Origin: Azolla caroliniana
Lineage: Eukaryota; Plantae; Polypodiophyta
Reading direction: 5' to 3'
Assembly: GCA_043228905.1 (NCBI GenBank)
Contig: JBHGNT010000016.1
Coordinates: 11,160,001-11,224,000 of the forward strand
DNA: 64,000 nt
Shown here piece after piece: positions 8,175 to 59,100 of the stretch; positions within the stretch are counted from its first letter, which is position 1; each line of letters begins with the position of its first letter. The notes below the pieces were generated by a model, which worked only from the letters and a program-made list of their open reading frames with translations, did not search any database and was not told the DNA's origin. The position numbers were made by a program, and so were the translations under genes.

Positions 8175-8190
8175 TTTCTGTGTCGATTTC

Positions 8191-8202: not shown

Positions 8203-8204
8203 CT

Positions 8205-24227: not shown

Positions 24228-24259
24228 AAGTGCGTTGCACTTTGAATCCACTCCCGGCC

Positions 24260-28281: not shown

Positions 28282-28315
28282 CCATCCCCCGGTTGTCCTC
28301 TGCACTTTGCAGGAA

Positions 28316-28327
28316 TCGTGGTCACCA
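28316..28327 (-). promoter_or_regulatory. Gypsy-E PBS (probably tRNA-Arg UCG)
   Basis: TGGTGACCACGA, 6 nt after the 5' LTR and upstream of gag. The tRNA identity is from memory and tentative. Confidence 0.65.
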
Positions 28328-28470
28328 AAATAGTGTTGTCTGCCTGGCCGGACTAGCCTCAACACAGGTGTCTATCCGACACTTCTCCAAAGGGGTGGTA
28401 AGGATTGGATCCTAGGTTACACGCGTAAGATGATTACAATTAAGCACAGACGGTAAAACAATACAGAGAT

Positions 28471-31400
28471 TGTTGAGAATCAACGCTCCGATTCACCTTC
28501 ACCTCTCGGCCACAACCGAGGAAACACACGAATCGTTGTTGCAGAAAATAGGAAATACAGAGAAAGACACGATAACACAGGGATTGACGTGGAAAACCCT
28601 ATACGGGAAAAACCACGGGAGTGCAAGACTCCAAACCAAAACTATGCACAGAGAAATATACAATGGCGAGCTACAAGGTGACGACCCTGAGCTCGCCATC
28701 CTCGCCATAGGCGGCGGTATTACACAGAGGCGTCGACCTCTTCCTCTCTCACGCTCTGTCTCTCTCACGGCTGCTCTCTCTTCACTCCTCTTGAGTGGAA
28801 AAACAGAAAAATAAGTAGCAACACATAAAACTGTTTGCCCTAAGTCATATTTATACACATATGACTTTCGGGCTATTTACAAATATAGCCTCAAGGGCCC
28901 TTGGCAAACATATTCACAAATATGTCCCCACATCCGGATCTCTCTCCGGGTACATTCATCATCCGGCTCCGTAGCCGGGGTCTTCATCATCCGGCTCCGT
29001 AGCCGGGTCTTCATCATCCGGCTCCGTAGCCGGGTCTTCATCATCCGGCTCCGTAGCCGGGTACTCTTCATCATCCGGCTACGTAGCCGGGTACTCTTCA
29101 TCCGGCTTCATGCCGGGTACTCTTCATCCTCCGGTTCCGTAACCGCAACCGGGCTTACCGTCATTCATCTCCGGACATCCCATCCGGAGGGACCGAAAAT
29201 CCCAACAAACTCCCCCTTCACTTCGGCATGGGATGTCTCTCCAATCCGATCCTCTTCCGGCATGCTTCCAGCTTGTCGGGTACCTTGGTCAGCATATCCG
29301 ACCCGTTCTCGTCCGTGTGGATCTTCGTCAGCACGAACTCCTTGTCTTCTATCCTTTCCCGGATCCAGTGGTATCTACGCTGGATGTGCTTCGTCCGGGA
29401 GTAATAGGCCGCGTTCTTCGCAAGGTGGATGGCACTCTGACTGTCGCAGTAGAGTCGGTACTCCTCCTGCCGGATACCGAGCTCTCTAATGAAGTCCTTC
29501 ATCCATATTATTTCCTTGCCGGCTTCAACAGCCGCCATGTACTCCGCCTCCGTGGTTGACAACGCAACCGTCTTCTGCAGCCTCGACTGCCACGAAACAG
29601 CTCCCCCTGCATACGTCATCACATACCCTGATGTGGACCGGCTGGTATCAGCATCAGCCGACATATCCGAATCGGTAAAGCCGTCAAGTTCGGGCTTACT
29701 GGAGCCGAATCGGAGGCACACGTTTGCCGTGCCCTTCAGGTATCGGAGTATCCACTTGGCCGCGTTCCAGTGCTCTTTGCCGGGGTTGCTCATGTACCGG
29801 CTCACCACTCCGACAGCATATCCTATGTCCGGTCTTGTACACACCATTGCGTACATCAAGCTTCCGACGGCAGAGGCATATGGTACTTTCATCATGTCCT
29901 CCTTCTCAGCCTTTGTCTTGGGGCTTTGCTTGCTGGACAACTTGCAGTTTGCCGGGAGGGTTGACCCGACCGGTCTTGCTTCCGACATGTTGAACCGGTG
30001 AAGCACCTTTGTCACGTACTTCTCCTGTGACAGCCACAACTGCTTCTTCTTCCGGTCCCGGATGATGTGCATCCCTAGTATTTGCCTCGCCGGACCCAGG
30101 TCTTTCATTGAGAAGGTTCGGTGAAGGGCCTTCTTCAGCATCCGTATCTTGACCTGGTCCCGTCCGACGATCAACATGTCGTCCACGTACAGGAGGAGTA
30201 TTAGAAAGTCTCCTCCTTCGAACTTCTTCACAAACACGCAGTGATCGGACTGCGTTTTGTGGTACCCTTCGTCTGTCATGAAGGAGTCGAACTTCTGGTA
30301 CCATTGCCGGGGAGCCTGCTTCAGACCGTAAAGGCTCTTCTTCAACCGGCATACGAGGTGCTCCTTCCCTTTCTTCTCGAATCCTTCCGGTTGCTGCATG
30401 TAGATCTCTTCTTCGAGGTCACCGTGAAGGAATGCCGTCTTCACGTCCATCTGTTCTACCTCGAGGTCCATGCTTGCCGCTATGCTCAGCACCGTCCGGA
30501 TGGAGGTCATCTTCACTACCGGGGCAAATATCTCGTCGAAGTCGACGCCCTTCTTCTGCTGAAACCCCTTCACCACGATCCTGGCTTTGTATCTCGGGAG
30601 GTTTTCGGCATCTCCCGGTTTCAGCTTGAACACCCACTTGTTACGGAGTGCCCGTTTTCCTTTCGGCAACTCCACAAGTTCATATGTGTGGTTCTCATGC
30701 AGGGAATCCATCTCCTCCTGCATGGCACTTAACCACCTGCGGCTATGGGTGTCATGCTTCGCTTCTTCAAAGATCTCCGGCTCCCCCTCGTCGGTTAGCA
30801 GCACGTGCTCTGGTTCCGGAAATCTCCGGGGGGCCCTTCTCTCTCTTAGAGGATATCTCCGTTCCGGAGCTTCGGTAACCGGTTCTTCCGATTCTTCTTC
30901 ATCCGAATCCATTTCGGGATCGGGGCCGGTTCCGGTATCATTTTCATCTTCTTCGGCCGGTTCTGTTTCTTCACCGTCTTCGGCCGGATCTTCGAGTGTT
31001 AACCGGTCCCTTGCCGGTCGGGACTGCTCCTCGTAGAGTTTATCCTCTCCGGTAGACTTGGAGCTCTTCATCTTCTTCTCCGACTCCCAGTCGGCGAGTG
31101 TCTTGTTCTCCATGAAGATGATGTCGCGACTCCGGAATATCTTCTTGTCGACCGGGTCCCATACTCGGTAGCCAAACTCGTCGTCGCCGTAACCGAGGAA
31201 TATGCATGGCCGGGTCTTTGGATCTAGCTTTCCTCTCCGGTCCTTTGCCACATGCACATATGTGAGACACCCGAATACCTTCAGGTGCCGGTAGGACACT
31301 TCCTTACCGGTCCACACTCTCTGTGGCGTGTCTCCATCCAGGGATACTGAGGGTGATCTATTTATCACATATGTCGCCGTCGACATTGCCTCAGCCCAAA

Positions 31401-33995
31401 ATCCCTTGGGTAATTTCGCATGTGCCAGCATACTCCGGACCCTCTCCATTATGGTCCGGTTCATCCTCTCGGCCAGCCCGTTCAGTTCCGGCATCTTCGG
31501 CACAGTAAACTCGAGCCGGATTCCCTTCGAGCGACAGTACTCCGCGAACTGCCCCCGGTATTCCCCTCCGTTATCCGCTCGTATCGCTTTCAGCTTCTTG
31601 CCGGATTCTCTTTCCACTCTCGCGTGGAGTTCTTTGAAGACGGACAATACTTGGTCCTTTGTCTTCAATGGTGCCGTCCACAGCTTCCGGCTATGGTCAT
31701 CTATGAATGTTACGAAGTACTGGGCTCCGCCATGTGACTTCGTTTCTACCTGGCACACATCAGTGTGTACCAACTCCAATGGTACACTACGTCTCATCGG
31801 TGGTCTTGAGCGGAAGGAGGTCCGGTTTTGCTTACCGGCCAGACAGTCGGTACACTTCCCCAGGTGTACGTGCTTTACCGGTATCAGGTTGTCTTCAGCA
31901 AGCCTCTTCATCCCCTTCTCGCTCATGTGGCACAGTCTCTTGTGCCACAGCTCACCGTCAGTGTCAGCTGCCACGTTCAGCTCCTCCGGACATAGCCGGG
32001 AATTCATCAGGTATAGTGTGTTGACCTTCCGGGCCCGAGCCACTATCAGGCTCCCTTTGCTGAACTTCATGACACCGTTCCGGATGCTACCCGTGTAGCC
32101 TTCATCGTCTAGCCTCCTGGCCGAAACCAGGTTCAATCGAACCTCCGGAACGTGTCGCACATCCTTCAGCAGCATCTTGCATCCGGTTGATGTCATCAGC
32201 CACACGTCTCCTATGCCGGCAATCCGGCATGTACCTTCATTTCCCATCCGGACACAGCCGTGCTCACCGGCTGTGTAGGATGAGAAGTATTTCTTCTCCG
32301 GGGTCAGGTGGAACGATGCTCCGGAATCGACCACCCAGGTCATCTCTTCACCGGCAAGGTTCAGCTCCCTCTCTTCGGTAATGAGCATTATCTCTTCTTC
32401 ACTTGCCGCGAGTGCCGTCGTTCCTTTCCGGTCTTGCCCTCGCCGATCCGGACCTCTCCGGTCCGTGGCTCCCCGGTATGCACCGTTTCGCTCCGGTGAC
32501 TTCTTCGAATCGGTGTCGTCGGCTCCGTTGTCTTTTCGGTAATGCCGACAATTCTTCCGGAAGTGCCCCGGCTTCCCACAGTGGAAGCATGTGGGCTTTC
32601 CTCTTGACTACGACCGGGTCCCCGACTTCTCCCGTCTCTGCGGACTCCGGTTCCGTTGTCTTCCCCGTTCCGATTCGGTAAGCAGCGCCTTCGAGTCGGA
32701 GGCCGGTTCTTTATCTCTCCGACGCGCTTCTTCGTTCAAAATACTTGTCTTTACCGTTTGTAGAGACAAGTTATCTTCGGTGCAGGAGGTGCTGAGAGTC
32801 ACCACCAAGTTCTCCCAGCTTTCCGGCAATGTACACATCAGAATGATGGCTTGCATTGCATCCTCCAACGGGAACTTGATCGCCGCAAGCTGGTTCACAA
32901 ATCCCATGAACGTGCTTACGTGTTCCACCATACTCTTGCCGTCGCGGTACTTGAGGTTCACTATCTTCCTCATCAGGGAGGTCCGGTTCAACGCATTCTT
33001 CCTCTCGTAGAGACCCGACAGCTTCCGCCACATCTCGTATGCGTTGGTGTCGTTCGCCACATGTTGTAGAACGCTCACGTCGACGTATTGCCGAATGGTT
33101 GCAACGGCTTTCCAGTTCAGAAGCCTCCATTCCGACTCAAGTACCCCCTTCGGTATTTCCTACCTGTCAATCGGTTCGTACAGGTCCCGAACAATCAGAA
33201 GATCCTCCATCTTGATCTTCCAGTCGGCGTAATTCTGCGCATTCAGCACCATCATCCCCGGCTGCCCGCTGCCACCGGCTTCCATTTTCTGCAGCAACTC
33301 GCTCTGATACCACTTTGTTGAGAATCAACGCTCCGATTCACCTTCACCTCTCGGCCACAACCGAGGAAACACACGAATCGTTGTTGCAGAAAATAGGAAA
33401 TACAGAGAAAGACACGATAACACAGGGATTGACGTGGAAAACCCTATACGGGAAAAACCACGGGAGTGCAAGACTCCAAACCAAAACTATGCACAGAGAA
33501 ATATACAATGGCGAGCTACAAGGCGACGACCCTGAGCTCGCTATCCTCGCCACAGGCGGCGGTATTACACAGAGGCGTCGACCTCTTCCTCTCTCACGCT
33601 CTGTCTCTCTCACGGCTGCTCTCTCTTCACTCCTCTTGAGTGGAAAAACAGAAAAATAAGTAGCAACACATAAAACTGTTTGCCCTAAGTCATATTTATA
33701 CACATATGGCTTTCGGGCTATTTACAAATATAGCCTCAAGGGCCCTTGGCAAACGTATTCACAAATATGTCCCCACATCCGGATCTCTCTTCGGGTACAT
33801 TCATCATCCGGCTCCGTAGCCGGGGTCTTCATCATCCGGCTCCGTAGCCGGGTCTTCATCATCCGGCTCCGTAGCCGGGTACTCTTCATCCGGCTTCATG
33901 CCGGGTACTCTTCATCCTCCGGTTCCGTAACCGCAACCGGGCTTGCCGTCATTCATCTCCGGACATCCCATCCGGAGGGACCGAAAATCCCAACA
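28471..33995 (-). mobile_element. Copia-F: full-length copia inserted in the Gypsy-E 5' LTR
   Basis: TSD GAGAT (28466-70 / 33996-34000), LTRs 28471-29207 and 33316-33995, PBS 33301-33312, PPT 29210-29219. Confidence 0.97.
29218..33285 (-). pseudogene. Copia-F gag-pol (two stops in gag; pol open for 1056 aa)
   Basis: Near-identical to the Copia-N protein; TAG at about 33160 and at 32608; 6-bp deletion near the C-terminus. Confidence 0.95.
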
Positions 33996-41629: not shown

Positions 41630-42541
41630 AGCCGGACACAGTGCAAAACGGTTTCGGACAACAGACATCGGTTCACTGACAATCGGCTTCAGCCTTTCCG
41701 ACCCGGCCAGTTCGGTCTTCTGTCTACGGATCATGCCGATTCGAACAAAACCGACCCGTCCGAGCTATTGGGAGACAGGTCCCTCCGGATGGGAAGGGAG
41801 AAGAACAGAGCCGGATGGTGCAGACCTGGTACAGAACCGGATGAGGAGTACCCGGCTACGGAGAGCCGGATGGCGCAGGCCCGGTATGAACCGGATGAGG
41901 AGTACTCGGCTATGGAGAGCCGGATGGTGCAAGCCCGGTATGAACCGGATGAGGAGTACCCGGCTACGGAGAGCCGGATGATACAGACCCGGTGAAGACC
42001 GGATGAGGAATACCCGGCTACGGAGAGCCGGATGGTACAGACCCGGTGAGAACCGGAGGAACAGACATATTCGTAAATATGTTTCTGAGAGCCCATCGAG
42101 GCTACATTTGTAAATAGCCGAAAAGTCATATTAGTATAAATATGACTTAGGGCAAACTTTTAGAAGTTAGTGTTGTCATTTTCTTGTTGGTGCAAGAATA
42201 GAGAGAGCATGTAACTGTACAGAGAGAGAGAGAGAGAGAGGTTGTTGCCTCTGTTGTAACCGCCGCCTGTGGCGAAGATCCGTGAGCACAAGGTCGGTGC
42301 CTCAGTGAACTCACTGTTGTACATACTTACATAGTGACAGTTTGCAGCCTGTGGGCTGCCGTGGTTTTTTCCCCTAGTTTGGGGTTTTCCACGTAAACAT
42401 CCTGTGTACCATTTCTCTTCTTTGTGTCGCGTTTTATTTCTCGTTTTCTGTGTATGAAAAGAATCTCGGTTGTGGCCGAGCGTTGGACATAAGGAGCCTT
42501 GAGTTCCCGTCAAGTGGTATCAGAGCGAATCGACACAAAAA

Positions 42542-44564
42542 ATGGACGAATCGTTTCGCGGCATGTTCAAGCTCACCGGCTCCAACTATTCAGTGTGGAA
42601 GTCGAAGATGAGGGACATGCTCGTGGTTAAAGACCTCTGGCTGCCAATTCAGTTCGGGGACAAGAGACCGGACAAAATCGACGTTGCGATATGGGAGGTG
42701 ATGCACATGAAGACAACGGCGTACATACGGTGCTTCATCGACATGAGCCTATACAACAACTTCAATGAAGAGAGCAAGGCTCATGAGCTCTGGGAGAAGA
42801 TCGGCATAATGTTCCAGAACAAAAATGTTGTTAATCAGGTGTCGGTATTCCGGAAGCTAGTAAGACTCCGGTACCAAGATGGCTCCAACATGGCGGAGTA
42901 CATGAATGCCTTCCAGGGGCTGATACACCAGGCAACGTCATTGGAAGTACCTCTTGCCGATGAGGTACTAGCGCTACTCCTGCTCGGTTCCCTCCCAGAT
43001 AGCTGGGAGACGTTGGTTGTCACTTTGGGCAACGCCGGGCCGGAAGGAAAACGGTTATCCCTAGCAAGAGTAAAGTCTAGCTTGCTAGATGAGGAGGCGC
43101 GTCGGAAGGATAAAGATACGAGCTCCGACTCCAAAGTGCTCCTTACCGAATCGGAATGCAAAAGACATAGAAACAGTAGTCCCCAGAACCGGGAGAAGTC
43201 TGGGACACGGTCAAAGTCAAGGGGGAGGCCCACTTGCTTCTATTGCGGCAAGCCGGGTCACTTCCAAAAGAACTGTCGGCTTTTCCGTAAAGACAAGGAA
43301 ACCAACGGTACCGATTCGAAGCAAATCCCGGACCGGAACGGTAAAGACTGGAGGGGGCCGGACCGGAAGGGAACGACGGCAATCGCGGCAAGTGAAGAGG
43401 AGTTGATGCTCATCACCGAGGAGAGTGAGATAAACCTTGCCGGCGACGAGATGACCTGGGTGGTAGACTCCGGAATGTCATTTCACCTTACCCCCCCGGA
43501 CCGGAAATGCTTCTCATCCTACTCAGCTGGTGACCACGGTTGTGTCCGGATGGGGAATGAAGGTACATGCCGAATTGTCGGCATAGGAGACGTGTGGCTG
43601 TCAACACCAACCGGATGCAAGTTGTTGCTAAAGGATGTCCGACACGTTCCGGAAGTTCGTCTGAACCTGATATCAGCCGGTCGGCTAGATGATGAAGGCT
43701 ACACGGGTAGCATCCGAAATGGTGTCATGAAGTTCAGCAAAGGGAGCCTGATTGTGGCTCGGGCCCGGAAGGTAAACACGTTGTACCTGATGAATGCCTG
43801 GTTATGTCCGGAAGAAGTGAACGTGGCATCCGACACTGCCGGTGAGCTGTGGCACAAGAGACTGTGTCATATGAGCGAGAAGGGGATGAAGAGGCTTGCA
43901 GACGACAACCTCATTCCAGTGAAGAACGTGCACTTGGAGAAGTGCACTGATTGTCTGGCCGGTAAGCAGAACCGGACCTCTTTCCGACCAAGGCCACCGA
44001 TGAGACGTAATGCACCACTAGAGTTGGTGCATACGGATGTGTGTCAAGGAGACACGAAGTCACACGCCGGAGTGCAGTACTTCGTGACGTTCATAGATGA
44101 CCACAGCCGGAAGCTGTGGGCCACACCGTTGAAGACGAAGGATCAGGTGTTATCCGTCTTCAAAGAGCTCCACGCGAGAGTGGAAAGAGAAATCGGCTGG
44201 AAGCTGAAGGCGGTTCGAGCAGATAACGGAGGAGAGTACCAGGGGCAGTTCGAGGAGTACTGCCGCTCGAAGGGAATCCGGCTCGAATTTACCGTGCCGA
44301 AGACGCCGGAACTAAACGGACTGGCCGAGAGGATGAACCGGACCATAATGGAGAGGGTCCGGAGTATGCTAGCACATGCAAAACTACCCAAGAAGTTTTG
44401 GGCTGAGGCATTGTTGACGGCGACATACGTGATAAACAGATCACCCTCAGTACCCTTGGACGGAGACACGCCATAGAGAGTATGGATCGGTAAGGAAGTG
44501 TCCTACCGGCATCTAAAGGTGTTCGGGTGTCTCGCGTACCTGCATGTAGCAAAGGACCGGAGAG
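42542..44564 (+). pseudogene. Copia-I gag-PR-INT
   Basis: 644-aa ORF, then a stop; interrupted by Copia-J. Confidence 0.93.
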
Positions 44565-44971
44565 TGTTGGGATTTTCGGTCCCTCCGGATGGGATGTCCG
44601 GAGATGAATGACGGCAAGCCCGGTTGCGGTTACGGAACCGGAGGATGAAGAGTACCCGGCATGAAGCCGGATGAAGAGTACCCGGCTACGGAGCCGGATG
44701 ATGAAGAGTACCCGGCTACGGAGCTGGATGATGAAGACCCGGCTACGGAGCCGGATGATGAAGACCCCGGCTACGGAGCCGGATGATGAATGTACCCGGA
44801 GAGAGATCCGGATGTGGGGACATATTTGTGAATATGTTTGCCAAGGGCCCTTGAGGCTATATTTGTAAATAGCCCGAAAGTCATATGTGTATAAATATGA
44901 CTTAGGGCAAACAGTTTTATGTGTTGTTGCTTATTTTTCTGTTTTCCACTTAGAGAGAGTGAAGAGAGCAG

Positions 44972-45026
<55 letters not shown>

Positions 45027-45320
45027 GAGGAGGTCGTTGCCTCTGTGTATTACCGCCGCCTGTGGCGAAGACAGTGAGCTCAAGGTTGTTGCCTTGAAGC
45101 TTCACCATTGTACATCTCTGTTCATAGTGATAGTTGGAGTTTGAGGACTCCCGTGGTTTTTCCCATTTAGGGTTTTCCACGTAAAATATCCTGTGTACTC
45201 TTCTCTCTATTGTCTTCGTGTACTTTGTATTTCCTATTTTCTGTGAGTTGATCCTATTCCTCGGTTGTGGCCGAGCACCGTGTGTAACAAAGTGGTATCA
45301 GAGCGACGGCAGTGCAGAAA

Positions 45321-48300
45321 ATAGAAGGCGGCAGCAGCGGGCAGCCGGGAATGATGGTGCTGAATGCGCAGAATTACGCCAACTGGAAGATCAAGATGGA
45401 GGATCTTCTGATTGTTCGGGACCTGTACGAACCGATTGACAGGTCGGAAATACCGAAGGGGGTACTTGAGACGGAATGGAGGCTTCTGAACCGGAAAGCC
45501 GTTGCAACCATTCGGCAATACGTCGACGTGAGCGTTCTACAACATGTGGCGAACGACACCAACGCATACGAGATGTGGCGGAAGCTGTCGGGTCTCTACG
45601 AGAGGAAGAATGCGTTGAACCGGACCTCCCTGATGAGGAAGATAGTGAACCTCAAGTACCGCGACGGCGAGAGTATGGTGGAACACGTAAGCACGTTCAT
45701 GGGATTTGTGAACCAGCTTGCGGCGATCAAGTTCCCGTTGGAGGATGCAATGCAAGCCATCATTCTGATGTGTACACTGCCGGAAAGCTGGGAGAACTTG
45801 GTGGTGACTCTCAGCACCTCCTGCACCGAAGATAACTTGTCTCTACAAACGGTAAAGACAAGTATTTTGAACGAAGAAGCGCGTCGGAGAGATAAAGAAC
45901 CGGCCTCCGACTCGAAGGCGCTACTTACCGAATCGGAACGGGGAAGACAATGGAACCGGAGTCCGCAAAGACGGGAGAAGTCGGGGACCCGGTCGCAGTC
46001 AAGAGGAAGACCCACATGCTTCCACTGTGGGAAGCCGGGGCACTTCCGGAAGAATTGTCGGCATTACCGAAAGGACAACGGAGCCGACGACACCGATTCG
46101 AAGAAGTCACCGGAGAGAAACGGTGCATACCGGGGAGCCACGGACCGGAGAGGTCCGGATCGGCGAGGGCAGGAACGGAAAGGAACGACGGCACTCGCGG
46201 CAAGTGAAGAAGAGATAATGCTCATTACCGAAGAGAGGGAGCTGAACCTTGCCGGTGAAGAGATGACCTGGGTGGTCGATTCCGGAGCATCGTTCCACCT
46301 GACCCCGGAGAAGAAATACTTCTCATCCTACACAGCCGGTGAGCACAGCTGTGTCCGGATGGGAAATGAAGGTACATGCCGGATTGCCGGCATAGGAGAC
46401 GTGTGGCTGATGACATCAACCGGATGCAAGATGCTGCTGAAGGATGTGCGACACGTTCCGGAGGGCCGATTGAACCTGATCTCGGCCGGGAGGCTAGACG
46501 ATGAAGGCTACACGGGTAGCATCCTGAACGGTGTCATGAAGTTCAGCAAAGGGAGCCTGATAGTGGCTCGGGCCCGGAAGGTCAACACACTGTACCTGAT
46601 GAATTCCCGGCTATGTCCGGAGGAGCTGAACGTGGCATCTGACACTGACGGTGAGCTGTGGCACAAGAGACTGTGCCACATGAGCGACAAGGGGATGAAG
46701 AGGCTTGCTGAAGACAACCTGATACCTATAAAGCACGTACACCTGGGGAAGTGTACCGACTGTCTGGTCGGTAAGCAAAACCGGACCTCCTTCCGCTCAA
46801 GACCACCGATGAGACGTAGTGTACCATTGGAGTTGGTACACACTGATGTGTGCCAGGTAGAAACGAAGTCACATGGCGGAGCCCAGTACTTCGTAACATT
46901 CATAGATGACCATAGCCGGAAGCTGTGGACGGCACCGTTGAAGACAAAGGACCAAGTATTGTCCGTCTTCAAAGAACTCCACGCGAGAGTGGAAAGAGAA
47001 TCCGGCAAGAAGCTGAAAGCGATACGAGCGGATAACGGAGGGGAATACCGGGGGCAGTTCGTGGAGTACTGTCGCTCGAAGGGAATCCGGCTCGAGTTTA
47101 CTGTGCCGAAGACGCCGGAACTGAACGGGCTGGCCGAGAGGATGAACCGGACCATAATGGAGAGGGTCCGGAGTATGCTGGCACATGCGAAATTACCCAA
47201 GGGATTTTGGGCTGAGGCAATGTCGACGGCGACATATGTGATAAATAGATCACCCTCAGTATCCCTGGATGGAGACACGCCACAGAGAGTGTGGACCGGT
47301 AAGGAAGTGTCCTACCGGCACCTGAAGGTATTCGGGTGTCTCACATATGTGCATGTGGCAAAGGACCGGAGAAGAAAGCTAGATCCAAAGACCCGGCCAT
47401 GCATATTCCTCGGTTACGGCGACGACGAGTTTGGCTACCGAGTATGGGACCCGGTCGACAAGAAGATATTCCGGAGTCGCGACATCATCTTCATGGAGAA
47501 CAAGACACTCGCCGACTGGGAGTCGGAGAAGAAGATGAAGAGCTCCAAGTCTACCGGAGAGGATAAACTCTACGAGGAGCAGTCCCGACCGGCAAGGGAC
47601 CGGTTAACACTCGAAGATCCGGCCGAAGACGGTGAAGAAACAGAACCGGCCGAAGAAGATGAAAATGATACCGGAACCGGCCCCGATCCCGAAATGGATT
47701 CGGATGAAGAAGAATCGGAAGAACCGATTACCGAAGCTCCGGAACGGAGATATCCTCTAAGAGAGAGAAGGGCCCCCCGGAGATTTCCGGAACCAGAGCA
47801 CGTGCTGCTAACCGACGAGGGGGAGCCGGAGAGCTTTGAAGAAGCGAAGCATGACACCCATAGCCGCAGGTGGTTAAGTGCCATGCAGGAGGAGATGGAT
47901 TCCCTGCATGAGAACCACACATATGAACTTGTGGAGTTGCCGAAAGGAAAACGGGCACTCCGTAACAAGTGGGTGTTCAAGCTGAAACCGGGAGATGCCG
48001 AAAACCCCCCGAGATACAAAGCCAGGATCGTGGTGAAGGGGTTTCAGCAGAAGAAGGGCGTCGACTTCGACGAGATATTTGCCCCGGTAGTGAAGATGAC
48101 CTCCATCCGGACGGTGCTGAGCATAGCGGCAAGCATGGACCTCGAGGTAGAACAGATGGACGTGAAGACGGCATTCCTTCACGGTGACCTCGAAGAAGAG
48201 ATCTACATGCAGCAACCGGAAGGATTCGAGAAGAAAGGGAAGGAGCACCTCGTATGCCGGTTGAAGAAGAGCCTTTACGGTCTGAAGCAGGCTCCCCGGC

Positions 48301-49394
48301 AATGGTACCGGAAGTTCGACTCCTTCATGACAGACGAAGGGTACCACAAAACGCAGTCCGATCACTGCGTGTTTGTGAAGAAGTTCGAAGGAGGAGACTT
48401 TCTAATACTCCTCCTGTACGTGGACGACATGTTGATCGTCGGACGGGACCAGGTCAAGATACGGATGCTGAAGAAGGCCCTTCACCGAACCTTCTCAATG
48501 AAAGACCTGGGTCCGGCGAGGCAAATACTAGGGATGCACATCATCCGGGACCGGAAGAAGAAGCAGTTGTGGCTGTCACAGGAGAAGTACGTGACAAAGG
48601 TGCTTCACCGGTTCAACATGTCGGAAGCAAGACCGGTCGGGTCAACCCTCCCAGCAAACTGCAAGTTGTCCAGCAAGCAAAGCCCCAAGACAAAGGCTGA
48701 GAAGGAGGACATCATGAAAGTACCATATGCCTCTGCCGTCGGAAGCTTGATGTACGCAATGGTGTGTACAAGACCGGACATAGGATATGCAGTCGGAGTG
48801 GTGAGCCGGTACATGAGCAACCCCGGCAAAGAGCACTGGAACGCGGCCAAGTGGATACTCTGATACCTGAAGGGCACGGCAAACGTGTGCCTCCGATTCG
48901 GCTCCGGTAAGCCCGAACTCGACGGCTTTACCGATTCGGATATGTCGGTTGATGCTGATACCAGCCGGTCCACATCAGGGTATGTGATGACGTATGCAGG
49001 GGGAGCTGTTTCGTGGCAGTCGAGGCTGCAGAAGACGGTTGCGTTGTCAACCACGGAGGCGGAGTACATGGCGGCTGTTGAAGCCGGCAAGGAAATAATA
49101 TGGATGAAGGACTTCATTAGAGAGCTCGGTATCCGGCAGGAGGAGTACCGACTCTACTGCGACAGTCAGAGTGCCATCCACCTTGTGAAGAACGCGGCCT
49201 ATCACTCCCGGACGAAGCACATCCAGCGTAGATACCACTGGATCCGGGAAAGGATAGAAGACAAGGAGTTCGTGCTGACGAAGATCCACACGGACGAGAA
49301 CGGGTCGGATATGCTGACCAAGGTACTTACACCCGACAAGCTGGAAGCATGCCGGAAGAGGATCGGATTGGAGAGACATCCCATGCCGAAGTGA
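45321..49394 (+). pseudogene. Copia-J gag-pol (ATG>ATA at 45321, TGA at 48861)
   Basis: ORFs 45312..48863 and 48885..49394 share a frame. Confidence 0.95.
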
Positions 49395-50114
49395 AGGGGG
49401 AGTTTGTTGGGATTTTCGGTCCCTCCGGATGGGATGTCCGGAGATGAATGACGGCAAGCCCGGTTGCGGTTACGGAACCGGAGGATGAAGAGTACCCGGC
49501 ATGAAGCCGGATGAAGAGTACCCGGCTACGGAGCCGGATGATGAAGAGTACCCGGCTACGGAGCCGGATGATGAAGACCCGGCTACGGAGCCGGATGATG
49601 AAGACCCCGGCTACGGAGCCGGATGATGAATGTACCCGGAGAGAGATCCGGATGTGGGGACATATTTGTGAATATGTTTGCCAAGGGCCCTTGAGGCTAT
49701 ATTTGTAAATAGCCCGAAAGTCATATGTGTATAAATATGACTTAGGGCAAACAGTTTTATGTGTTGCTACTTATTTTTCTGTTTTTCCACTCAAGAGGAG
49801 TGAAGAGAGAGCAGCCGTGAGAGAGACAGAGCGTGAGAGAGGAAGAGGTCGACGCCTCTTTGTAATACCGCCGCCTATGGCGAGGATGGCGAGCTCAGGG
49901 TCGTCGCCTTGTAGCTCGCCATTGTATATTTCTCTGTGCATAGTTTTGGTTTGGAGTCTTGCACTCCCGTGGTTTTTCCCGTATAGGGTTTTCCACGTCA
50001 ATCCCTGTGTTATCGTGTCTTTCTCTGTATTTCCTATTTTCTGCAACAACGATTCGTGTGTTTCCTCGGTTGTGGCCGAGAGGTGAAGGTGAATCGGAGC
50101 GTTGATTCTCAACA

Positions 50115-53036
50115 ATCTCTGTATTGTTTTACCGTCTGTGCTTAATTGTAATCATCTTACGCGTGTAACCTAGGATCCAATCCTTACCACCCCTTTGGAG
50201 AAGTGTCGGATAGACACCTGTGTTGAGGCTAGTCCGGCCAGGCAGACAACACTATTTTGGTGACCACGATTCCTGCAAAGTGCAGAGGACAACCGGGGGA
50301 TGGATGTCTAGACCAAACGACGACCACATCACCGAACGAGGGAGACGATACACCGAATGAGAGCAACGACGGGAAGCCCTGCAGCAAGCCGTCGACGAGA
50401 TCCGGCGAGATCGGTCATTCTCCAGAACTCTTCGGAGAGTCGCAGAAGAAGCACTGCAGTTCCGGGTTCTGCAAGTCCCCGACGAAGGCAGTAGCATAAC
50501 AAGCCTGCCAGAGGCGGAAACGATACTACAGGGGGCGATGGGGACTCGGAAGCATTCGCAACACTTGAGGCGGAGTCGGAAAGCGACGGAAGCGTTGCGT
50601 CCCGGTATAAAAGCAGCCACGACACACCAAACGACCCGGGGGAAGAGGGGTCAGAAGACTCAGTAACACCGGAGCCAGAGGAAGAAATAACCTTGGAGTT
50701 CGGTGACCGGCAATCGCCGAGGGAGGCTGACGGGATACTGACTACACCCGCGAAGGAACCGAAGGAGCGGATACCGACAACACCCGCGGAGGAACCAAAG
50801 GACCGGACACCGGCAACACCCGCGGAGGAACTGAAGGAGCGGATACCGGCACCAACCGCGGAGGAACCAAAGGTTCTCACACCGACGCCAACAACGGACA
50901 GAGAGCGGAGAAAGCAGGAGAGTCAGTTGGACGACACGATGCCGTACCCATACCTAAAGTACCGGGATGAGCCCGACGCGGAGGCACACGTGTACGCATT
51001 ACTCCAAACATGGGAAGCCAACCATGTCTCCCAAAGACTGACGGAGCCCGAAGCCGAACGATCCAAAGTCGCCGAATTCGGCATGATCTTAGAAGGACCG
51101 GCGGCCCGATGGCACGCAAAGCACTTACCGGGCAGCTTTGCCACATTCGATGCCTTGAAGGCCAAATTCCTCAGGCTTTTTCACAGACAAGTTGAGCAAA
51201 GGGAATTGGTCGGGCAGTTCTACACCACCCGGCAGGAAGAGAACGAGATTGTGCCACAATTCATCATTCGGTTTCAAACCCTGCACAGCCAACTGACGAG
51301 AGCACCACCCGAAGACGAAGCCAAAGCAGTCTTTTTGGCCGCGCTGAAAGAGCCACTTCGAACAATGTGCGGAGTCCTTGATTTCCACACCAGCACAATG
51401 GACCAAGTTATTGATCGGGTCTTAGAAATGGACAAGACTAGCTCCTTCTTGTCGATGGGGATGTTACACCGGGCACTCCCGAAGGAGGAAGACCTGAGGT
51501 TCCGACAGGCCTTACAAAGCACAACATGCCTAAATTCGGGCCACTCAACAGTAGACTGCACCCTGCGGACACAATGTATGATCTGCAACTCTCGAGCCCA
51601 TACAACGGACCGATGCGAATATAACCTGTTAAATCGGCAGGCAGCACCGGTTCGACACATAGAACCGCGCAATCAGAACCCGGATGAGGATCGATTCCGG
51701 AGAGACGACCGCTACCAACGCGAACGCGGTAACAGATACGTTGATAGAAGACGCGATAACTATGACCGAGAGGAGAAATGCAGAGATAGCTACCCCTGGG
51801 ACCGGTACGACCGAGATGAATCCCCGGAATACGAACGACGCAGAGAAGAGAGGTGACAAGGGAACCGAAATTTCCGACGGAATTAGAAGTGTGGATTTTT
51901 CCGAAGAGAGGAACGTCGGGAGGCAGCAAGGAATGACAACCCGGTATCGGTACCGGATAACCGAAAAACCGAAGACGACCGCCGAAGCATACCCACCCTT
52001 CAAACCGGGGACAAAGGAGAAACGAGCAACAGTCACAAGGTGTACTGTTATTATTGCCGTAAGGAAGGCCATTATAGTAACCAATGCCCAAGCAAAACCA
52101 ATGACAAGTAGCCGGCAGTCAACATGGTTATAGCCGAAATAACAGAAGTACAGCAGGTCACAACCCGGTCAAAGGGAAAGACCGCCGAGTGGGAAGCCCA
52201 GGAGGCAATCAGAAAACAAGCGGCGCAATGGATCAAGGAGGCCAATGAACAGAATGCGGCAGAAGTAAGAGACCAAAATATGCCAAAAGACGAAGAAATC
52301 ATACAGCCAGGAGAAAACCCGACGTGGCAAGCGCTACAGGACTGGCAAATTATGCTGCCGTTAGCACGGCTACTACAGTTGGTGCCACGATTTACGGCAG
52401 ACTTACAGGCATCCGTGAGCAAACCGAAGCCGACGCCAGCACCGGCATTCTTCTCCAACCCGGAGGAAGGACTAGCGGTGGTCGATACAAGTAGCCCGGC
52501 GATCACGGCAATCGTGAAAGGAAAGGAAATTGCTGGAACGATTATTGACGGAGGCTCCGGGGTAAATGTCATCAGCCGACAAACATGCTCTTCGACACAG
52601 GAAGCACAAAGCCAGAATGGCTGAGATGGCTTTCGGAGCAGTTATCGGGAGTTGGTCGCGCTCCGAACACAGATCAAGGAATTCCAAGGGGAGCTGTTGC
52701 AGGCAAGGGAAGGAATTCAACAAGCACAAGTTGTCACCGAGCCGGTCGGGACAACAAGGAAGCAACCAGAACCGGAACCGGTAGCCTTGCAAACCGGCCC
52801 TGAGACCGAAAAAATAATAGAAACCTTACGAGAGGAGTTAAAAGCTCAGGAGGCATTAAGGGAAAAAGAAAGGGAGCAGCAGAAAGCGGTGGAGGACGAC
52901 AGACGGAAAATGGAAGAAGGCCTCCGGAAAGGCCGAGCCACTAATGACCGACTGCAAGAAGAAAAAGAGAAGCTGCAAAAGGAGAAGGACCGACTGCGTC
53001 GACATGCCGAGCAGGAGATAGAACGACTGCAGGAAG
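50115..53036 (+). other. Captured inverted copy of 25549-28470 (Gypsy-E part-LTR, PBS, gag, PR, coiled coil)
   Basis: Mirror coordinates sum to 78585 and the ORFs are near-identical. The segment begins with ATCTC, the Copia-F TSD. Confidence 0.97.
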
Positions 53037-53425
53037 CTGTTTCGTGGCAGTCGAGGCTGCAGAAGACGGTTGCGTTGTCAACCACGGAGGCGGAGTACAT
53101 GGCGGCTGTTGAAGCCGGCAAGGAAATAATATGGATGAAGGACTTCATTAGAGAGCTCGGTATCCGGCAGGAGGAGTACCGACTCTACTGCGACAGTCAG
53201 AGTGCCATCCACCTTGCGAAGAACGCGGCCTATCACTCCCGGACGAAGCACATCCAGCGTAGATACCACTGGATCCGGGAAAGGATAGAAGACAAGGAGT
53301 TCGTGCTGACGAAGATCCACACGGACGAGAACGGGTCGGATATGCTGACCAAGGTACTTACACCCGACAAGCTGGAAGCATGCCGGAAGAGGATCGGATT
53401 GGAGAGACATCCCATGCCGAAGTGA
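52652..53425 (+). CDS. Chimeric ORF: gypsy coiled coil fused in frame to copia RNase H C-terminus (non-ATG start; expression unknown)
   Basis: ..EQEIERLQE|AVSWQSRLQKTVALSTTEAEY.. Confidence 0.45.
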   Translation: MVALRTQIKEFQGELLQAREGIQQAQVVTEPVGTTRKQPEPEPVALQTGPETEKIIETLREELKAQEALREKEREQQKAVEDDRRKMEEGLRKGRATNDRLQEEKEKLQKEKDRLRRHAEQEIERLQEAVSWQSRLQKTVALSTTEAEYMAAVEAGKEIIWMKDFIRELGIRQEEYRLYCDSQSAIHLAKNAAYHSRTKHIQRRYHWIRERIEDKEFVLTKIHTDENGSDMLTKVLTPDKLEACRKRIGLERHPMPK

Positions 53426-53842
53426 AGGGGGAGTTTGTTGGGATTTTCGGTCCCTCCGGATGGGATGTCCGGAGATGAATGACGGCAAGCCCGGTTGCGG
53501 TTACGGAACCGGAGGATGAAGAGTACCCGGCATGAAGCCGGATGAAGAGTACCCGGCTACGGAGCCGGATGATGAAGAGTACCCGGCTACGGAGCCGGAT
53601 GATGAAGACCCGGCTACGGAGCCGGATGATGAAGACCCCGGCTACGGAGCCGGATGATGAATGTACCCGGAGAGAGATCCGGATGTGGGGACATATTTGT
53701 GAATATGTTTGCCAAGGGCCCTTGAGGCTATATTTGTAAATAGCCCGAAAGTCATATGTGTATAAATATGACTTAGGGCAAATAGTTTTATGTGTTGTTG
53801 CTTATTTTTCTGTTTTCCACTTAGAGAGAGTGAAGAGAGCAG

Positions 53843-53887
<45 letters not shown>

Positions 53888-54155
53888 GAGGAGGTCGTTG
53901 CCTCTGTGTATTACCGCCGCCTGTGGCGAAGACAGTGAGCTCAAGGTTGTTGCCTTGAAGCTTCACCATTGTACATCTCTGTTCATAGTGATAGTTGGAG
54001 TTTGAGGACTCCCGTGGTTTTTCCCATTTAGGGTTTTCCACGTAAAATATCCTGTGTACTCTTCTCTCTATTGTCTTCGTGTACTTTGTATTTCCTATTT
54101 TCTGTGAGTTGATCCTATTCCTCGGTTGTGGCCGAGCACCGTGTGTAACAGAGAG

Positions 54156-56182
54156 GAAAGTTAGATCCAAAGACCCGGCCATGCATATTCCTCGGGTACG
54201 GTGACGATGAGTTCGGCTACCGAGTGTGGGACCCGGTCGACAAGAAGGTATTCCGGAGTTGAGATATTATCTTCATGGAGGACAAGACGCTTGCCGACTG
54301 GGAGTCGGAGAAGAAGATAATGAACTCTGAGTCGACCGGTAAGGATAGACTCTACGATGAGCAGACCCAACCGGCAAGAGACCGGTTAGCACTCGAGGAA
54401 CCAGCCGGTTACGGTGAGGATACCGAACCGGCAGAAGAAGAAGTAGAGGAAGTTGAGACTGGAACCGGCCAAGACCCCGAATCGGATTCGGATGAAGAGC
54501 AAACGGAGGAGCCGGTTACCGAAGCCCGAAGACGTAGATATCCTCTCAGAGAGAGAAGAGCCCCCCGGAGATTTCCGGATGCAGAGCATGTGCTGCTGAC
54601 CGATGAGGGAGAGCCGGAAAGCTTCGAAGAAGCGAAGGAGGACACCCACAGCTGAAAATGGTTAAGTGCCATGCAGGATGAGATGGATTCCCTGCATGAG
54701 AACCATACGTACGAATTGGTTGAGTTGCCGAAAGGAAAGCGGGCACTCCGAAATAAGTGGGTGTACAAGTTGAAACCGGGAGATGCCGGCAACCCCCCGA
54801 GATACAAAGCCAGGATCATGGTGAAGGGGTTCTAGCAGAAGAAGGGCGTGGACTTCGATGAGATATTTGCCCCGGTAGTAAAGATGACCTCCATCCGGAC
54901 GGGGCTGAGTATAGCGGCAAGCATGGACCTCGAGGAAGAGCAGTTGGACGTGAAGACGACATTCCTTCATGGCGACCTCGAAGAGGAGCTCTACATGCAG
55001 CAACCGGAAGGATTCGTGGAGAAAGGGAAGGAGCACCTGGTATGCCGGCTAAAGAAGAGCCTGTACGGACTGAAGCAGGCTCCTCGGCAATGGTATCGGA
55101 AGTTCGACTCCTTCATGACCAATCAAGGGTACCACAAGACGCAGGCCGATCAGTGCGTGTTTGTGAAGAAGTTCGAAGGAGGGGACTTCCTGATACTCCT
55201 CCTATACGTGGATGACATGTTGATTGTCGGACAAGACCAAGTAAAAATACGGATGCTGAAGAAGGCTCTCAACCAGACCTTCTCAATGAAAGACTTGGGT
55301 CTGGCAAGACAGATGTTGGGGATGCACATCATTCGGGACCGGTCAAAGAAGCAATTATGCCTGTCACAGGAGAAGTACGTGACAAAGGTGCTTCACTAGT
55401 TCAACATGTCAGAGGCGAAACCGGTCGGATCGACTCTTCCGGCAAACTGCAGGCTATCCGGTAAGCAAAGCCCTAAGACGAAAGCAGAGAAAGCGGATAT
55501 GATGAAGATTCCATATGCCTCTGCCGTCGGGAGCTTGATGTATGCAATGGTTTGTACCCGACCGGACATAGGATACGCAGTCGGAGTGGTGAGCCGGTTT
55601 ATGAGCAATCCCGGTAAGGAGCACTGGAACGCGGTCAAATGGATACTCCGGTATTTGAAGGGCACTTCAAATATGTGTCTCCGATTCGGCTCCGGAAAAC
55701 CTGAACTGGACAGATACACCGATTCGGACATGTCGGCTGATGTGGATACCAGCCGGTCTACATCCGGGTATGTAATGACATATGCAGGGGGAGCTGTTTC
55801 GTGGCAGTCGAGGCTGCAGAAGACGGTTGCATTGTCAACCACAGAGGCGGAGTACATGGAGGCTGTGGAAGCCAACAAGGAAATATTATGGATGAAGGAC
55901 TTCATCGGAGAGCTCGGTATCTGGCAAGAGGAATACCGACTCTATTGCGACAGTCAAAGTGCCATCCACCTTACGAAGAATGCGGCCTACCATTCCCGGA
56001 CGAAGCATATCCAGCGGAGGTATCACTGGATCCGGGAAAGAGTAGATGACCAGGACTTCGCACTGACGAAGATCCACACAACCGAGAACGGGTCAGATAT
56101 GCTGACCAAAGTGCTGACACCCGACAAGCTGGACGCATGCCGGAAGAGGATCGGACTGGTAAGACACCCCATGCCGGAGTGA
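54156..56182 (+). pseudogene. Copia-I INT C-terminus, RT and RNase H (several stops)
   Basis: Resumes RGKLDPKTRPC after the TSD; YVDDML. Confidence 0.93.
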
Positions 56183-59100
56183 AGGGGGAGTTTGTTGGGA
56201 GTGAAGGTCCCTCCGGATGGGAAGGGAGAAGAACAGAGCCGGATGGTGCAGACCCGGTACAGAACCGAATGAGGAGTACCCGGCTACGGAGAGCCGGATG
56301 GTGCAGGCCCGGTATGAACCGGATGAGGAGTACTCGGCTACGGAGAGCCGGATGGTGCAGGCCCTGTATGAACCGGATGAGGAGTACCCGGCTACGGAGA
56401 GCCGGATGATACAGACCCGGTGAAGACCGGATGAGGAATACCCGGCTACGGAGAGCCGGATGGTACAGACCCGGTGAGAACTGGAGGAAGAGACATATTC
56501 GTAAATATGTTTCTGAGAGCCCATCGAGGCTACATTTGTAAATAGCCGAAAAGTCATATTAGTATAAATATGACTTAGGGCAAACTTTTAGAAGTTAGTG
56601 TTGTCATTTTCTTGTTGGTGCAAGAATAGAGAGAGCACGTAACTGTACAGAGAGAGAGAGAGAGAGAGGTTGTTGCGAGAGAGAAAGAGGTCGTTGCCTC
56701 TGTTGTAACTGCCGCCTGTGGCGAAGATCCGTGAGCACGAGGTCGGTGCCTCAGTGAACTCATTGTTGTACATACTTACATAGTGACAGTTTGCAGCCTG
56801 TGGACTGCCGTGGTTTTTTCCCCTAGTTTGGGGTTTTCCACGTAAACATCCTGTGTACCATTTCTCTTCTTTGTGTCGCGTTTTATTTCTCGTTTTCTGT
56901 GTATGAAAAGAATCTCGGTTGTGGCCGAGCGTTGGACATAAGGAGCCTTGAATTCCCGTCACGAGAACCTATGCCTATACCTGTATTTTTTAGATAACCC
57001 ATGTATACGCCCATTACGGGGGAGTGTCGAATACAAATGTATAATGGACGTATTCACACTATCCTCTTAGAGAGCCCAAGTTCGGGCTATTTCTGTAAAT
57101 AACATAAAGGGCAGTTGCCCTAAGTGAGATACTATATAAAGTGACTTTGTAACCTTTTGTAAAGGTTGGTTGTTCATGGTTGTAATTGTTGCCCTTTTAT
57201 GAATATAGATATATTCTTTGTGCCTCTCTCTCTCTCTGTGTGTGCGTATATTGTTCTTGTTTTTCTCATACGCAGGTATTTCTTCCTCACAGATTCATAC
57301 TGTGTGACCTCTTCTGCACTGACGGCCTTGTTCATCCCCAAAAAAGGGTACTGAGGGTGGTATGTTTATCACATAGGTCGTCGTTGCCAGCGCCTCAGCC
57401 CAAAACGTCTTGGGTAACTTGGCATGTGCGATCATGCTCCGGACTCTCTCCATTATGGTCCGGTTCATCCTCTCGGCCAGCCCATTTAGTTCTAGTGTCT
57501 TCGGTACGGTGAATTCAAGCCGGATTCCCTTCGACCGGTAGTACTCCTCAAACTGCCTCCGGTATTCTCCTCCGTTATCTACTCGAACCGCCTTCAGCCT
57601 CCAACCGGTTTCTCTCTCCACTCTCGCGTGGAGCTCCTTGAAGATTGATAGCACCTGATCCTTTGTCTTCAATGATGAGACCCACAACTTACAGTTGTGG
57701 TCATCTATGAACGTCACGAAGTACTGTGATTCGGCATGTGACTTCGTGTCAACTTGACACACCGGTATATACCAGCTCCAGTGGTGCATTCCGTCTCATC
57801 GGTGGCCTTGACCGGAAGGAGGTTCGGTTTTGTTGGCCAGCCAAGCCATCAGTGCACTTCTCAAGTTGCACGTCATTCACCGGAATGAAGTTGTCTCTGG
57901 CAAGCCTCTTCATCCCCTTCTCACTCATGTGACACAGTCTTTTGTGCCACAGCTCATTGGCAGCGTTGGAAGAAACGTTCACTTCTTCGTCCTGGCATAA
58001 CCGGGCATTCATCAGGTACAATGTGTTGACTTTCCGGGCCCGAGCCACTATTAGGTGCCCCTTGCTAAACTTCATCACTCCATTCCGAATGCTACCCATG
58101 TAGCCTTCATCATCTAGCCGATCGGCTGATAGTAGGTTCAGTCAAACCTCCGGAACGTGTCGGACATCCTTCAGCAGCAACTTGCATCCGGTTGGTGTCG
58201 TCAACCACACATCTCCTATGCCGACAATTCGGCATGTACCTTCATTCCCCATCTGGACACAGCCCTGCTCACTAGTTGTGTAGGATGAGAAGTATTTCTG
58301 GTCCGGGGTAAGGTGTAACGACACTCCGGAATCGACAACCCACGTTGTCTCGTTGCCGACAAGGTTCAACTCACACTCCTCGTTGATGAGCATTAGTTCC
58401 TCTTCACTTTCCGCGATCGCCGTCATTCCCTTCCGGTTCGGGCCTCGCCGATCCGAACCGTTTCCGTTCGGTGACTTCTTCGAATCAGTACTATCGGTTC
58501 CCTTGTCTTTCCGGAAATGCCAACAGTTCTTCCGGAAGTGCCCCGGCTTGCCGCAATAGAAGCAAGTGGGCCTCCCCCTTGACTTTGACCGTGTCCCCGA
58601 CTTTTCCCGATTCTAGGGACTCCGATTCCTTTGTCTTCCGCGTTCTGATTCGGTAAGGAGGGCTTTGGTGTCGAAGATCACCTCCTTGTCTTTTCGACGC
58701 AGCTCCTCATTTAGCAAGCTCAACATGACTCTTGCTAGGGATAGTTGTTTTCCTACCGGCCTGGCGTTGCCCAACGTGACAACTAACGTCTCCTAGCTAT
58801 CTGGGAGGGAACCGAGCAAGAGCAATACGAGTACCTCATTGGTGAGAGGTAGTTCCAACGAGGTTGCTTGATGTATTAACCCCTGGAAGGCATTCATGTG
58901 CTCCGCCATACTAGAGTTGTCTTGGTACCGGAGCCTCACTAGCTTCCGGAATACCGAAACCCGATTAACAACATTATTGTTCTGGAACATGATGCCGATC
59001 TTCTCCCAAAGTTCATGAGCCTTGCTCTCTTCATTGAAGTTGTTGTACAGGCTCATGTTGATGAAGCATTGGATGTATGTCGTCATCTTCATGTGCATCA

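What the first reader, a model, noticed from the sequence alone, without database searches (positions are those of the whole stretch)
44565..54150. Three-LTR copia that captured 2.9 kb of a neighbour's 3' flank, with the donor in the same window
Seen: one TSD (GAGAG) brackets LTR - gag-pol - PPT - LTR - 2922 bp of Gypsy-E - RNase H tail - PPT - LTR. The middle LTR has the Copia-F R/U5 and is followed by the F TSD. It also shares a variant with the F 3' LTR (28708/49877) that the other copies I compared lack. The outer LTRs and leader are of another type. The return junction at 53035-36 joins TGCAGGAAG to TGCAGGGGGAG by imperfect microhomology. Established: retroviruses capture genes by read-through, co-packaging and template switching. 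Inference: the same happened here with re-insertion only about 11 kb from F. Alternatively, J was repaired by one-sided SDSA using nearby F, which would explain the proximity. Either way a copia now carries gypsy PBS-gag-PR cargo.
Basis: partly seen in the sequence, partly recalled or inferred. Interest (0 to 1): 0.85.

Follow-up and report, generated by a model that had tools for sequence, protein, structure and literature searches.

The report
Copia copied its inverted neighbour's flank
A plant jumping gene holds a 3.3-kb inverted copy of a neighbouring element's end and flank between two copies of its own tail; it is likely a one-off DNA-repair accident on the chromosome rather than cargo picked up while jumping, so three end-repeats under one insertion scar would not by themselves prove an RNA origin.

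Summary
The structure is real: one TSD (GAGAG) brackets LTR - gag-pol - LTR - 2922 bp of gypsy E - RNase H tail - LTR, and the middle LTR ends in neighbour F's R/U5 and F's TSD. New here: F-type sequence starts only between 49550 and 49766. The tail and U3 before it share 0 of 5 F-derived changes and match J's second tail, so J's own tail is duplicated, not replaced. Best reading (0.55): a two-switch repair on the chromosome, leaving by homology between the inverted U3s and returning by 2-bp microhomology, as at human inverted-repeat rearrangements. Main rival (0.25): reverse transcription over two parent RNAs plus a transcript from F's 3' LTR, reinserted 10.6 kb from F. J's pol has a stop; the cargo is a deleted, broken gypsy piece. 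The junction was not bridged in listed contigs of 4 other samples, which seem to lack this haplotype. No genome or long reads were available. The scan's notes hold no look-alike. Known kinds of event, an unusual combination; modest interest.

The parts
44560..44564 (+). Left TSD GAGAG (J inserted in the pol of an older copia, H)
44565..45289 (+). LTR1 of J: U3 0.9% from F's, R/U5 22.8% from F's; 2 substitutions in 715 sites and one (GA)n length change against LTR3
45293..45304 (+). PBS TGGTATCAGAGC (initiator tRNA-Met type: label recalled)
   Evidence: sequence
45288..49394 (+). Copia gag-pol (gag, zinc knuckle, Pol beta-barrel, integrase, SH3, RT), broken by a TGA at 48861-48863; 2.5% from F up to 46799, 0.68% from F after it
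49006..49549 (+). First copy of J's RNase H tail, PPT (49393-49402) and start of U3; J-type, shares none of F's 5 derived changes
49405..50114 (+). Middle, chimeric LTR: J-type U3, F 3'-LTR-type R/U5
49550..49766 (+). Junction 1: window of the switch from J to F, inside a 310-bp run identical between J and F; holds a TATA-like box at 49730
50115..53036 (+). Cargo: F's TSD ATCTC, end of E's 5' LTR (to 50251), PBS-like TGGTGACC (50258-50265), broken gag (PF03732 in 50495-51856), protease-like motif (52547-52561), coiled-coil-like frame
53035..53036 (+). Junction 2: return from E (25549) to J (49004-49005) at the shared bases AG; joins E's frame in phase to the RNase H end
53037..53435 (+). Second copy of J's RNase H tail and PPT (53424-53433)
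53436..54150 (+). LTR3 of J
54151..54155 (+). Right TSD GAGAG
28471..33995 (-). Donor copia F, inverted relative to J, TSD ATCTC, LTRs 1.03% apart; 3' LTR 28471-29207
25549..28470 (-). Donor stretch of gypsy E (whole E 23824-34254, F inserted in its 5' LTR in the same orientation)
41766..56961 (+). Host copia H (LTRs 2.7% apart), itself inside element M (LTRs 36627-36946 and 57024-57341), inside the old copia 22814-59839 that also holds E and F

Best explanation
J is a copia element whose 3' end holds an inverted copy of neighbour F's R/U5 and 2922 bp of F's flank between two copies of J's own RNase H tail and U3, and this was likely made after insertion by a DNA repair event with two template switches. 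Inferred steps: J inserted as an ordinary two-LTR element; a broken or stalled strand in the U3 of its 3' LTR invaded the identical U3 of the inverted F 3' LTR 20.7 kb away; synthesis ran through F's R/U5, F's TSD and into E; the strand then returned to J (sister chromatid or the same molecule) at a 2-bp microhomology 0.55-0.76 kb upstream of where it left, recopied the tail and U3, and so regained homology to the other end. Shown: the structure, the local donor, the J-type duplicated tail, one junction in identical sequence and one at microhomology. The product is predicted to be unable to move on its own.
For: (1) Tail1+U3 differ from tail2+U3 at 2 of 761 sites, and share 0 of 5 F-derived changes (3 substitutions, a 6-bp deletion, a 27-bp repeat gain), while R/U5 shares 2 of 3. 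(2) The block copied from F and E differs from its donor at 9 of 3270 sites, J's pol+tail+U3 from F at 19 of 2961 (one-sided p 0.024): J's body is not a copy of F. (3) Junction anatomy matches human inverted-repeat rearrangements: junction 1 inside an identical stretch giving a chimeric repeat, junction 2 with 1-9 bp microhomology in 14 of 24 samples (PMC11293582, passages). (4) The donor is local; repair-mediated captures found inside human TEs had the donor within 5 kb in 824 of 1136 cases, and 20 were chimeras of two donors (PMC2671141, passages). (5) In 15 of 15 Drosophila LTR-mediated retrocopies the cargo replaced part of the element (PMC5131818, passages); here nothing is lost and the tail is gained twice. 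(6) Over 144 combinations of measured and assumed inputs the DNA-level routes together had median probability 0.88, quartiles 0.36-0.99, above 0.5 in 69% (most inputs are my assumptions).
Against: All three clocks agree (LTR1/LTR3 0.28%, tail1/tail2 0.26%, cargo+R/U5 0.28%), as reverse transcription predicts; likelihood ratio only 1.7 because counts are small. The switch window includes the likely U3/R border, where an RNA made from F's 3' LTR would begin; a DNA switch lands in this window with chance about 217/761. The window is a pile-up of this family (48% similar to copy D; J and F sit inside the same old copia), so local reinsertion is less unlikely than for a random site; with strong targeting assumed (1 in 100) the median P(DNA) falls to 0.17. 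Size and distance exceed the human repair-mediated set (max 619 bp, mostly under 5 kb). The direct 2/3 against 0/5 test alone gives p 0.11. No mutation shared by the two tail copies against LTR1 was found, which would have proved a post-insertion date (little power).
Confidence: 0.55

Rival explanations
1. Capture during reverse transcription with three templates. Minus-strand synthesis copies the tail of one J-parent RNA, jumps at the microhomology to a passenger RNA that starts in F's 3' LTR and reads into E, runs off its 5' end at R, transfers to a second J-parent RNA and finishes; integrase then inserts the 9.6-kb cDNA 10.6 kb from F. A two-round version gives the same product.
For: One TSD and near-identical outer LTRs, the criteria of Sabot and Schulman (PMC1950507, whole text). 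Equal clocks. F-type sequence can start at the likely R start; F and E have the same orientation, so F's 3' LTR could drive E. J's own U3/R mosaic suggests the family recombines during reverse transcription. Unreviewed notes report other aberrant RT products in this genome (not tested).
Against: Needs a third RNA or a second round, because the first parent tail is consumed once copied (established retroviral logic, recalled). Reinsertion beside the donor is not expected of an element that replicates away from the chromosome. Published captures replace internal sequence.
Confidence: 0.25
2. One-sided SDSA from a break at 49005: the left end copies F's tail, 3' LTR and flank and is end-joined to the right end. 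F's five changes either all arose later or were erased by gene conversion from tail2 to tail1.
For: Explains proximity with a single invasion and needs no sister template; microhomology at the return.
Against: P(no F-derived change shared) is 0.004-0.05 given the two clocks, assuming all five arose after F inserted; if any was in F from the start the model fails without conversion. Conversion would have to cover 49203-49549.
Confidence: 0.12
3. Assembly or phasing error. The same two junctions also fit an arrangement in which everything between the two E copies is inverted; then no three-LTR element lies under one TSD. A pure mis-join is also possible.
For: No reads of this haplotype were available. 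Human cases show several conformers with identical junctions.
Against: The duplicated blocks differ from their sources (7 of 2922; 2 of 761), unlike an assembler copy; all TSDs pair up in place. The inverted conformer would itself be a DNA-level product.
Confidence: 0.05

Closest known systems
Template-switch complex LTR insertions (Sabot and Schulman 2007, PMC1950507, whole text read; rice survey bioRxiv 10.1101/452573, part 1 of 2 read: 45 of 63 three-LTR complexes have TSDs)
   Same: Three LTRs, one 5-bp TSD, outer LTRs most alike, chimeric middle LTR.
   Different: There two complete internal domains of one family share an LTR; here the second 'domain' is a neighbour's gypsy flank plus a 0.4-kb duplicate of the element's own tail, and the donor is in the same nest.
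Inverted-repeat two-switch rearrangements, DUP-TRP/INV-DUP (PMC11293582, passages read)
   Same: First switch by homology between inverted repeats giving a chimeric repeat; second junction with short microhomology; inverted copy between direct duplicates.
   Different: Human, kb-to-Mb low-copy repeats, with a triplicated segment; here two LTRs, a 3.3-kb inverted duplicate and a 0.55-0.76-kb direct duplicate, no triplication.
[quoted passage not shown] 2009, PMC2671141, passages read)
   Same: Insertion inside a transposable element, templated from nearby DNA, microhomology at the join, two-donor cases exist.
   Different: Those are under 620 bp with donors mostly within 5 kb; this is 3.3 kb, 21-27 kb away, and enters by long homology.
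LTR-mediated retroposition and 3' transduction (Tan et al. 2016, PMC5131818, passages read; Rider-SUN known here only through the review PMC13317346, passages read)
   Same: Foreign sequence between element-derived parts with microsimilarity at the join; Rider carried flanking DNA by read-through.
   Different: Cargo replaces internal sequence there and some products moved again; here the tail is duplicated, the donor is adjacent and no second copy was found.
Recombined CR elements in maize centromere 10 (PMC4806543, passages read)
   Same: Nested same-family cluster with microhomology-mediated duplications and chimeric elements ascribed to break repair.
   Different: Their chimeras have mismatched TSDs; a centromeric position is not shown for this window.

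Membership tests
Ty1/copia LTR retrotransposon | gag, integrase before RT, TG...CA LTRs, PBS, PPT, 5-bp TSD | tested here: met
Tork lineage (Tnt1-like) | Placement with Tnt-1/Tto1/Batata in an RT/INT tree | tested here: inconclusive
   Named hits of copy D include Tnt1-94-related proteins at 57-61% identity; Tnt-1 is Tork in PMC6317226 (passages); no tree built
Template-switch complex insertion (Sabot and Schulman) | Three LTRs under one TSD with the outer pair most alike | tested here: met
   2 of 715 between outer LTRs
Template-switch complex insertion (Sabot and Schulman) | Two complete internal domains | tested here: not met
   Second segment is gypsy flank plus 399 bp of tail
Template-switch complex insertion (Sabot and Schulman) | Formed before integration | not testable with these tools
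   Needs other alleles of this locus; none held
LTR-mediated retroposition / transduction | Microsimilarity at the fusion point | tested here: met
LTR-mediated retroposition / transduction | Cargo replaces part of the internal region | tested here: not met
   Tail and U3 are duplicated, nothing is lost
LTR-mediated retroposition / transduction | Further copies at other insertion sites | tested here: inconclusive
   1 copy in the window; none bridged among 32 listed of 2024 laid pieces in 4 other samples; genome not held
LTR-mediated retroposition / transduction | Donor RNA (F read-through or F 3'-LTR transcript) exists | not testable with these tools
   No RNA holder listed
Inverted-repeat two-switch rearrangement (DUP-TRP/INV-DUP type) | Junction 1 inside an identical stretch of an inverted repeat pair, giving a chimeric repeat | tested here: met
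   310-bp identical run from 49550
Inverted-repeat two-switch rearrangement (DUP-TRP/INV-DUP type) | Junction 2 with 1-9 bp microhomology | tested here: met
   AG at 53035-36
Inverted-repeat two-switch rearrangement (DUP-TRP/INV-DUP type) | A triplicated segment between duplications | tested here: not met
   Pattern is duplicate - single - duplicate with one inverted copy
Repair-mediated duplication (Pace et al.) | Acceptor inside a TE, donor on the same chromosome | tested here: met
Repair-mediated duplication (Pace et al.) | Donor within 5 kb, length under about 620 bp | tested here: not met
   20.7-27.5 kb and 3.3 kb

The most novel reading that the evidence does not exclude
The element was built in a particle holding three RNAs, one of them a gypsy transcript driven by a copia 3' LTR, and its cDNA came back to within 11 kb of the donor. 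That would mean this family homes to its own nest, and that the stretch from the middle LTR to LTR3 (gypsy PBS, copia PPT) is the seed of a copia-gypsy hybrid non-autonomous element.
Probability: 0.15. Interest if true: 0.65.

Novelty: new variant of a known kind. Interest (0 to 1): 0.32.

Why it matters
Three LTRs under one TSD with matching outer LTRs is the published test for an origin in reverse transcription. If the best reading holds, such a structure can also be made on the chromosome, with two neighbouring LTRs acting like the inverted repeats behind human complex rearrangements, so counts of 'template-switch complexes' and of retrotransposon captures would include repair products. Because donor and product are both at hand and differ by few bases, the locus lets the two routes be told apart by simple allele typing. 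As a single, broken, apparently non-spreading element it has little biological weight of its own.

Tried and rejected
Genome-wide search for further junction copies: no genome held. Sequencing runs: 24 listed, best share of words 0.55, no RNA holder listed. Contigs of X1, X4, X5, X9 laid on 49850-53480: in X1, 20 of the 40 listed sites show only the non-window letter (57 further sites not shown), so these samples seem to lack the window's E copy. On 52990-53085 in X1, X4, X5, X6 both parent continuations appear in 4 of 4 runs, and none of the 32 listed pieces of 2024 laid bridges the junction; contigs show presence only, so this is no proof of absence, and summed depth was not used as copy number. 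JGI metagenome scans for the junction and for the LTR start: 0 and 0 loci. Moss Bryco centromere idea: dropped, since named best hits are Tnt1-like and Bryco uses a half-tRNA primer while J's PBS looks like the full-length type (recalled); a centromeric position is untested. Recombination between two adjacent insertions (Devos type): rejected, it would leave mismatched TSDs. Error-prone synthesis as cause of 4 of 7 cargo differences within 155 bp (p 0.017): only 2 of 7 could be polarised (50509 in the copy, 53008 in E), left open. In-frame fusion at junction 2: a one-in-three chance and downstream of stops, given no weight. Earlier notes by place, sequence and words: no look-alike. The primary Rider-SUN papers were not held. 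Literature searches for a chromosome-made three-LTR element with a local inverted donor listed none that I read as describing one; most listed papers were seen only as listings, and subscription papers and supplements were not seen.
Full report
Setting. The window is plant retrotransposon DNA; earlier unreviewed notes call the genome probably a fern (not tested). 48% of the window resembles copia copy D. An old copia on the minus strand (22814-59839) holds gypsy E with copia F in its 5' LTR, a solo LTR with TSD TATCA (34754-35443), and element M, which holds copia H, which holds J. J and F are thus inverted members of one family inside one nest, 10.6 kb apart. Named relatives of D's pol include Tnt1-like proteins at 57-61% identity.

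J runs 44565-54150 between two GAGAG; removing it restores H's pol without gain or loss as judged against J's own homologous stretch. The three LTRs are 44565-45289, 49405-50114 and 53436-54150. After the middle LTR come F's TSD and 2922 bp of E with 7 differences, then 399 bp of RNase H tail and PPT. E's 3' LTR shows the empty site with one ATCTC, so the LTR-ATCTC-E join is specific to the F insertion; it occurs twice in the window, the other three junctions once. Two derived bases tie the middle R/U5 to F's 3' LTR rather than its 5' LTR.

What was copied from where. J's body is not a copy of F: 2.5% apart in leader and gag, 0.68% in pol, with derived changes on both sides (8 in F, 6 in J, 1 unclear in pol), against 0.28% for the R/U5 plus cargo (p 0.024). 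In the tail and U3, F has three substitutions, a 6-bp deletion and a 27-bp repeat gain; neither J tail has any of them, and the two J tails differ at 2 of 761 sites. F-type sequence begins between 49550 and 49766. So the insertion is F's R/U5 plus E (about 3.3 kb), flanked by a direct duplication of 0.55-0.76 kb of J. F's LTRs are 1.03% apart, about four times the capture's age, so most of F's private changes should predate the capture; the chance that none of 3-5 is shared, had the tail been copied from F, is 0.004-0.05. The count-only Fisher test is weaker (p 0.11).

Mechanism. Two routes give this product. On the chromosome: a strand leaving J's 3' U3 invades the identical U3 of inverted F, copies outward into E, and returns to J upstream at AG; an upstream return recreates homology to the waiting end, which would explain why the tail is duplicated. 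This is the junction pattern reported for human inverted-repeat rearrangements (PMC11293582, passages), and local donors are the rule for repair captures inside TEs (PMC2671141, passages). In a particle: reverse transcriptase would need two parent RNAs and a passenger from F's 3' LTR. This fits the equal clocks (0.28, 0.26, 0.28%; likelihood ratio 1.7) and a switch near the TATA-like box at 49730, but needs reinsertion beside the donor, and published captures replace rather than duplicate element sequence (PMC5131818, passages). A rough odds table gave DNA-level routes a median 0.88 (quartiles 0.36-0.99) over 144 input sets; the result hinges on how strongly the family targets this nest (medians 0.995, 0.67 and 0.17 for assumed local-reinsertion chances of 1e-5, 1e-3 and 1e-2). 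I put the two-switch repair at 0.55, RT capture at 0.25, simple SDSA with or without conversion at 0.12, an assembly or phasing error at 0.05.

Function. J's pol is cut by a TGA at 48861-48863. The cargo's gag is broken (a 453-aa frame with PF03732, then stops; a 10-bp gap against family contigs at 50530), and family contigs leave the window's sequence at 52588 and 52652, consistent with a deletion in E that removed most of pol. To move the cargo, a transcript would have to read through the middle LTR and borrow enzymes in trans. No second copy was seen: none among the scan's notes, none among 32 listed of 2024 laid contig pieces from four other samples, which, however, appear not to carry this E copy at all. 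These blanks are not evidence of absence.

Comparison. Three-LTR elements under one TSD are known and not rare (PMC1950507, whole text; bioRxiv 10.1101/452573, part 1 of 2), as are transduction by Rider (review PMC13317346, passages) and repair-made chimeras in nested clusters (PMC4806543, passages). J fails a defining feature of each named class (see membership tests) but works like the inverted-repeat two-switch class. My searches did not show a plant three-LTR element traced to a local inverted donor; subscription papers and supplements were not seen. Passages of two centromere preprints were read for context only, and PMC6317226 passages for lineage names.

Verdict. Real, well resolved and unusual in combination, but built from known processes, single as far as seen, and broken. 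New variant of a known kind; interest 0.32.

Noticed in passing
window 22814-59839: Five-layer nest: an old copia (LTRs about 90% alike, TSD GGACG/GGACA) split at one pol position by element M (320-bp LTRs, TSD AAGGG), which holds H, which holds J; the same old copia also holds E with F and a solo LTR. Repeated same-family insertions over a wide age range (LTR divergence 0.13% for D outside the nest, 0.28-10% inside).
   Followed up: partly
window 24210-24230 (minus strand): Gypsy E has no purine tract before its 3' LTR; the stretch ends ...GGGCGTGCCA-TG, like a tRNA 3' end, as in the PPT-less gypsy lineage of earlier notes on this genome.
   Followed up: no
window 23824 and 34254: E has no TSD: its 3' LTR lacks the terminal CAACA seen in its 5' LTR and a few bases of the host copia are missing, suggesting a small later deletion.
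   Followed up: partly
window 44565-45289 against 33316-33995, 16039-16794, 34754-35443: The family's LTRs are mosaics: J and F share U3 (0.9%) but differ by 22.8% in R/U5, with the border just after the TATA-like box; J's R/U5 is closest to the solo LTR (10.6%).
   Followed up: partly
window 29036-29062 and about 33850-33880: F's two LTRs differ in the number of 27-30-bp U3 repeat units (one more in the 3' LTR, one fewer in the 5' LTR than J).
   Followed up: partly
window 50355-50509: 4 of the 7 differences between cargo and E fall within 155 bp (p 0.017); none in 50740-52589.
   Followed up: partly
window 2830-3498 and 1140-1273: A tandem 335-bp duplication (99.4%) and a 53-bp exact repeat in the gypsy element at the window's left end.
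   Followed up: no
window 5313-8673: Copia B, close to H (92%), is cut off in RT at 5313; its 5' LTR was not matched by a second LTR in the window.
   Followed up: no
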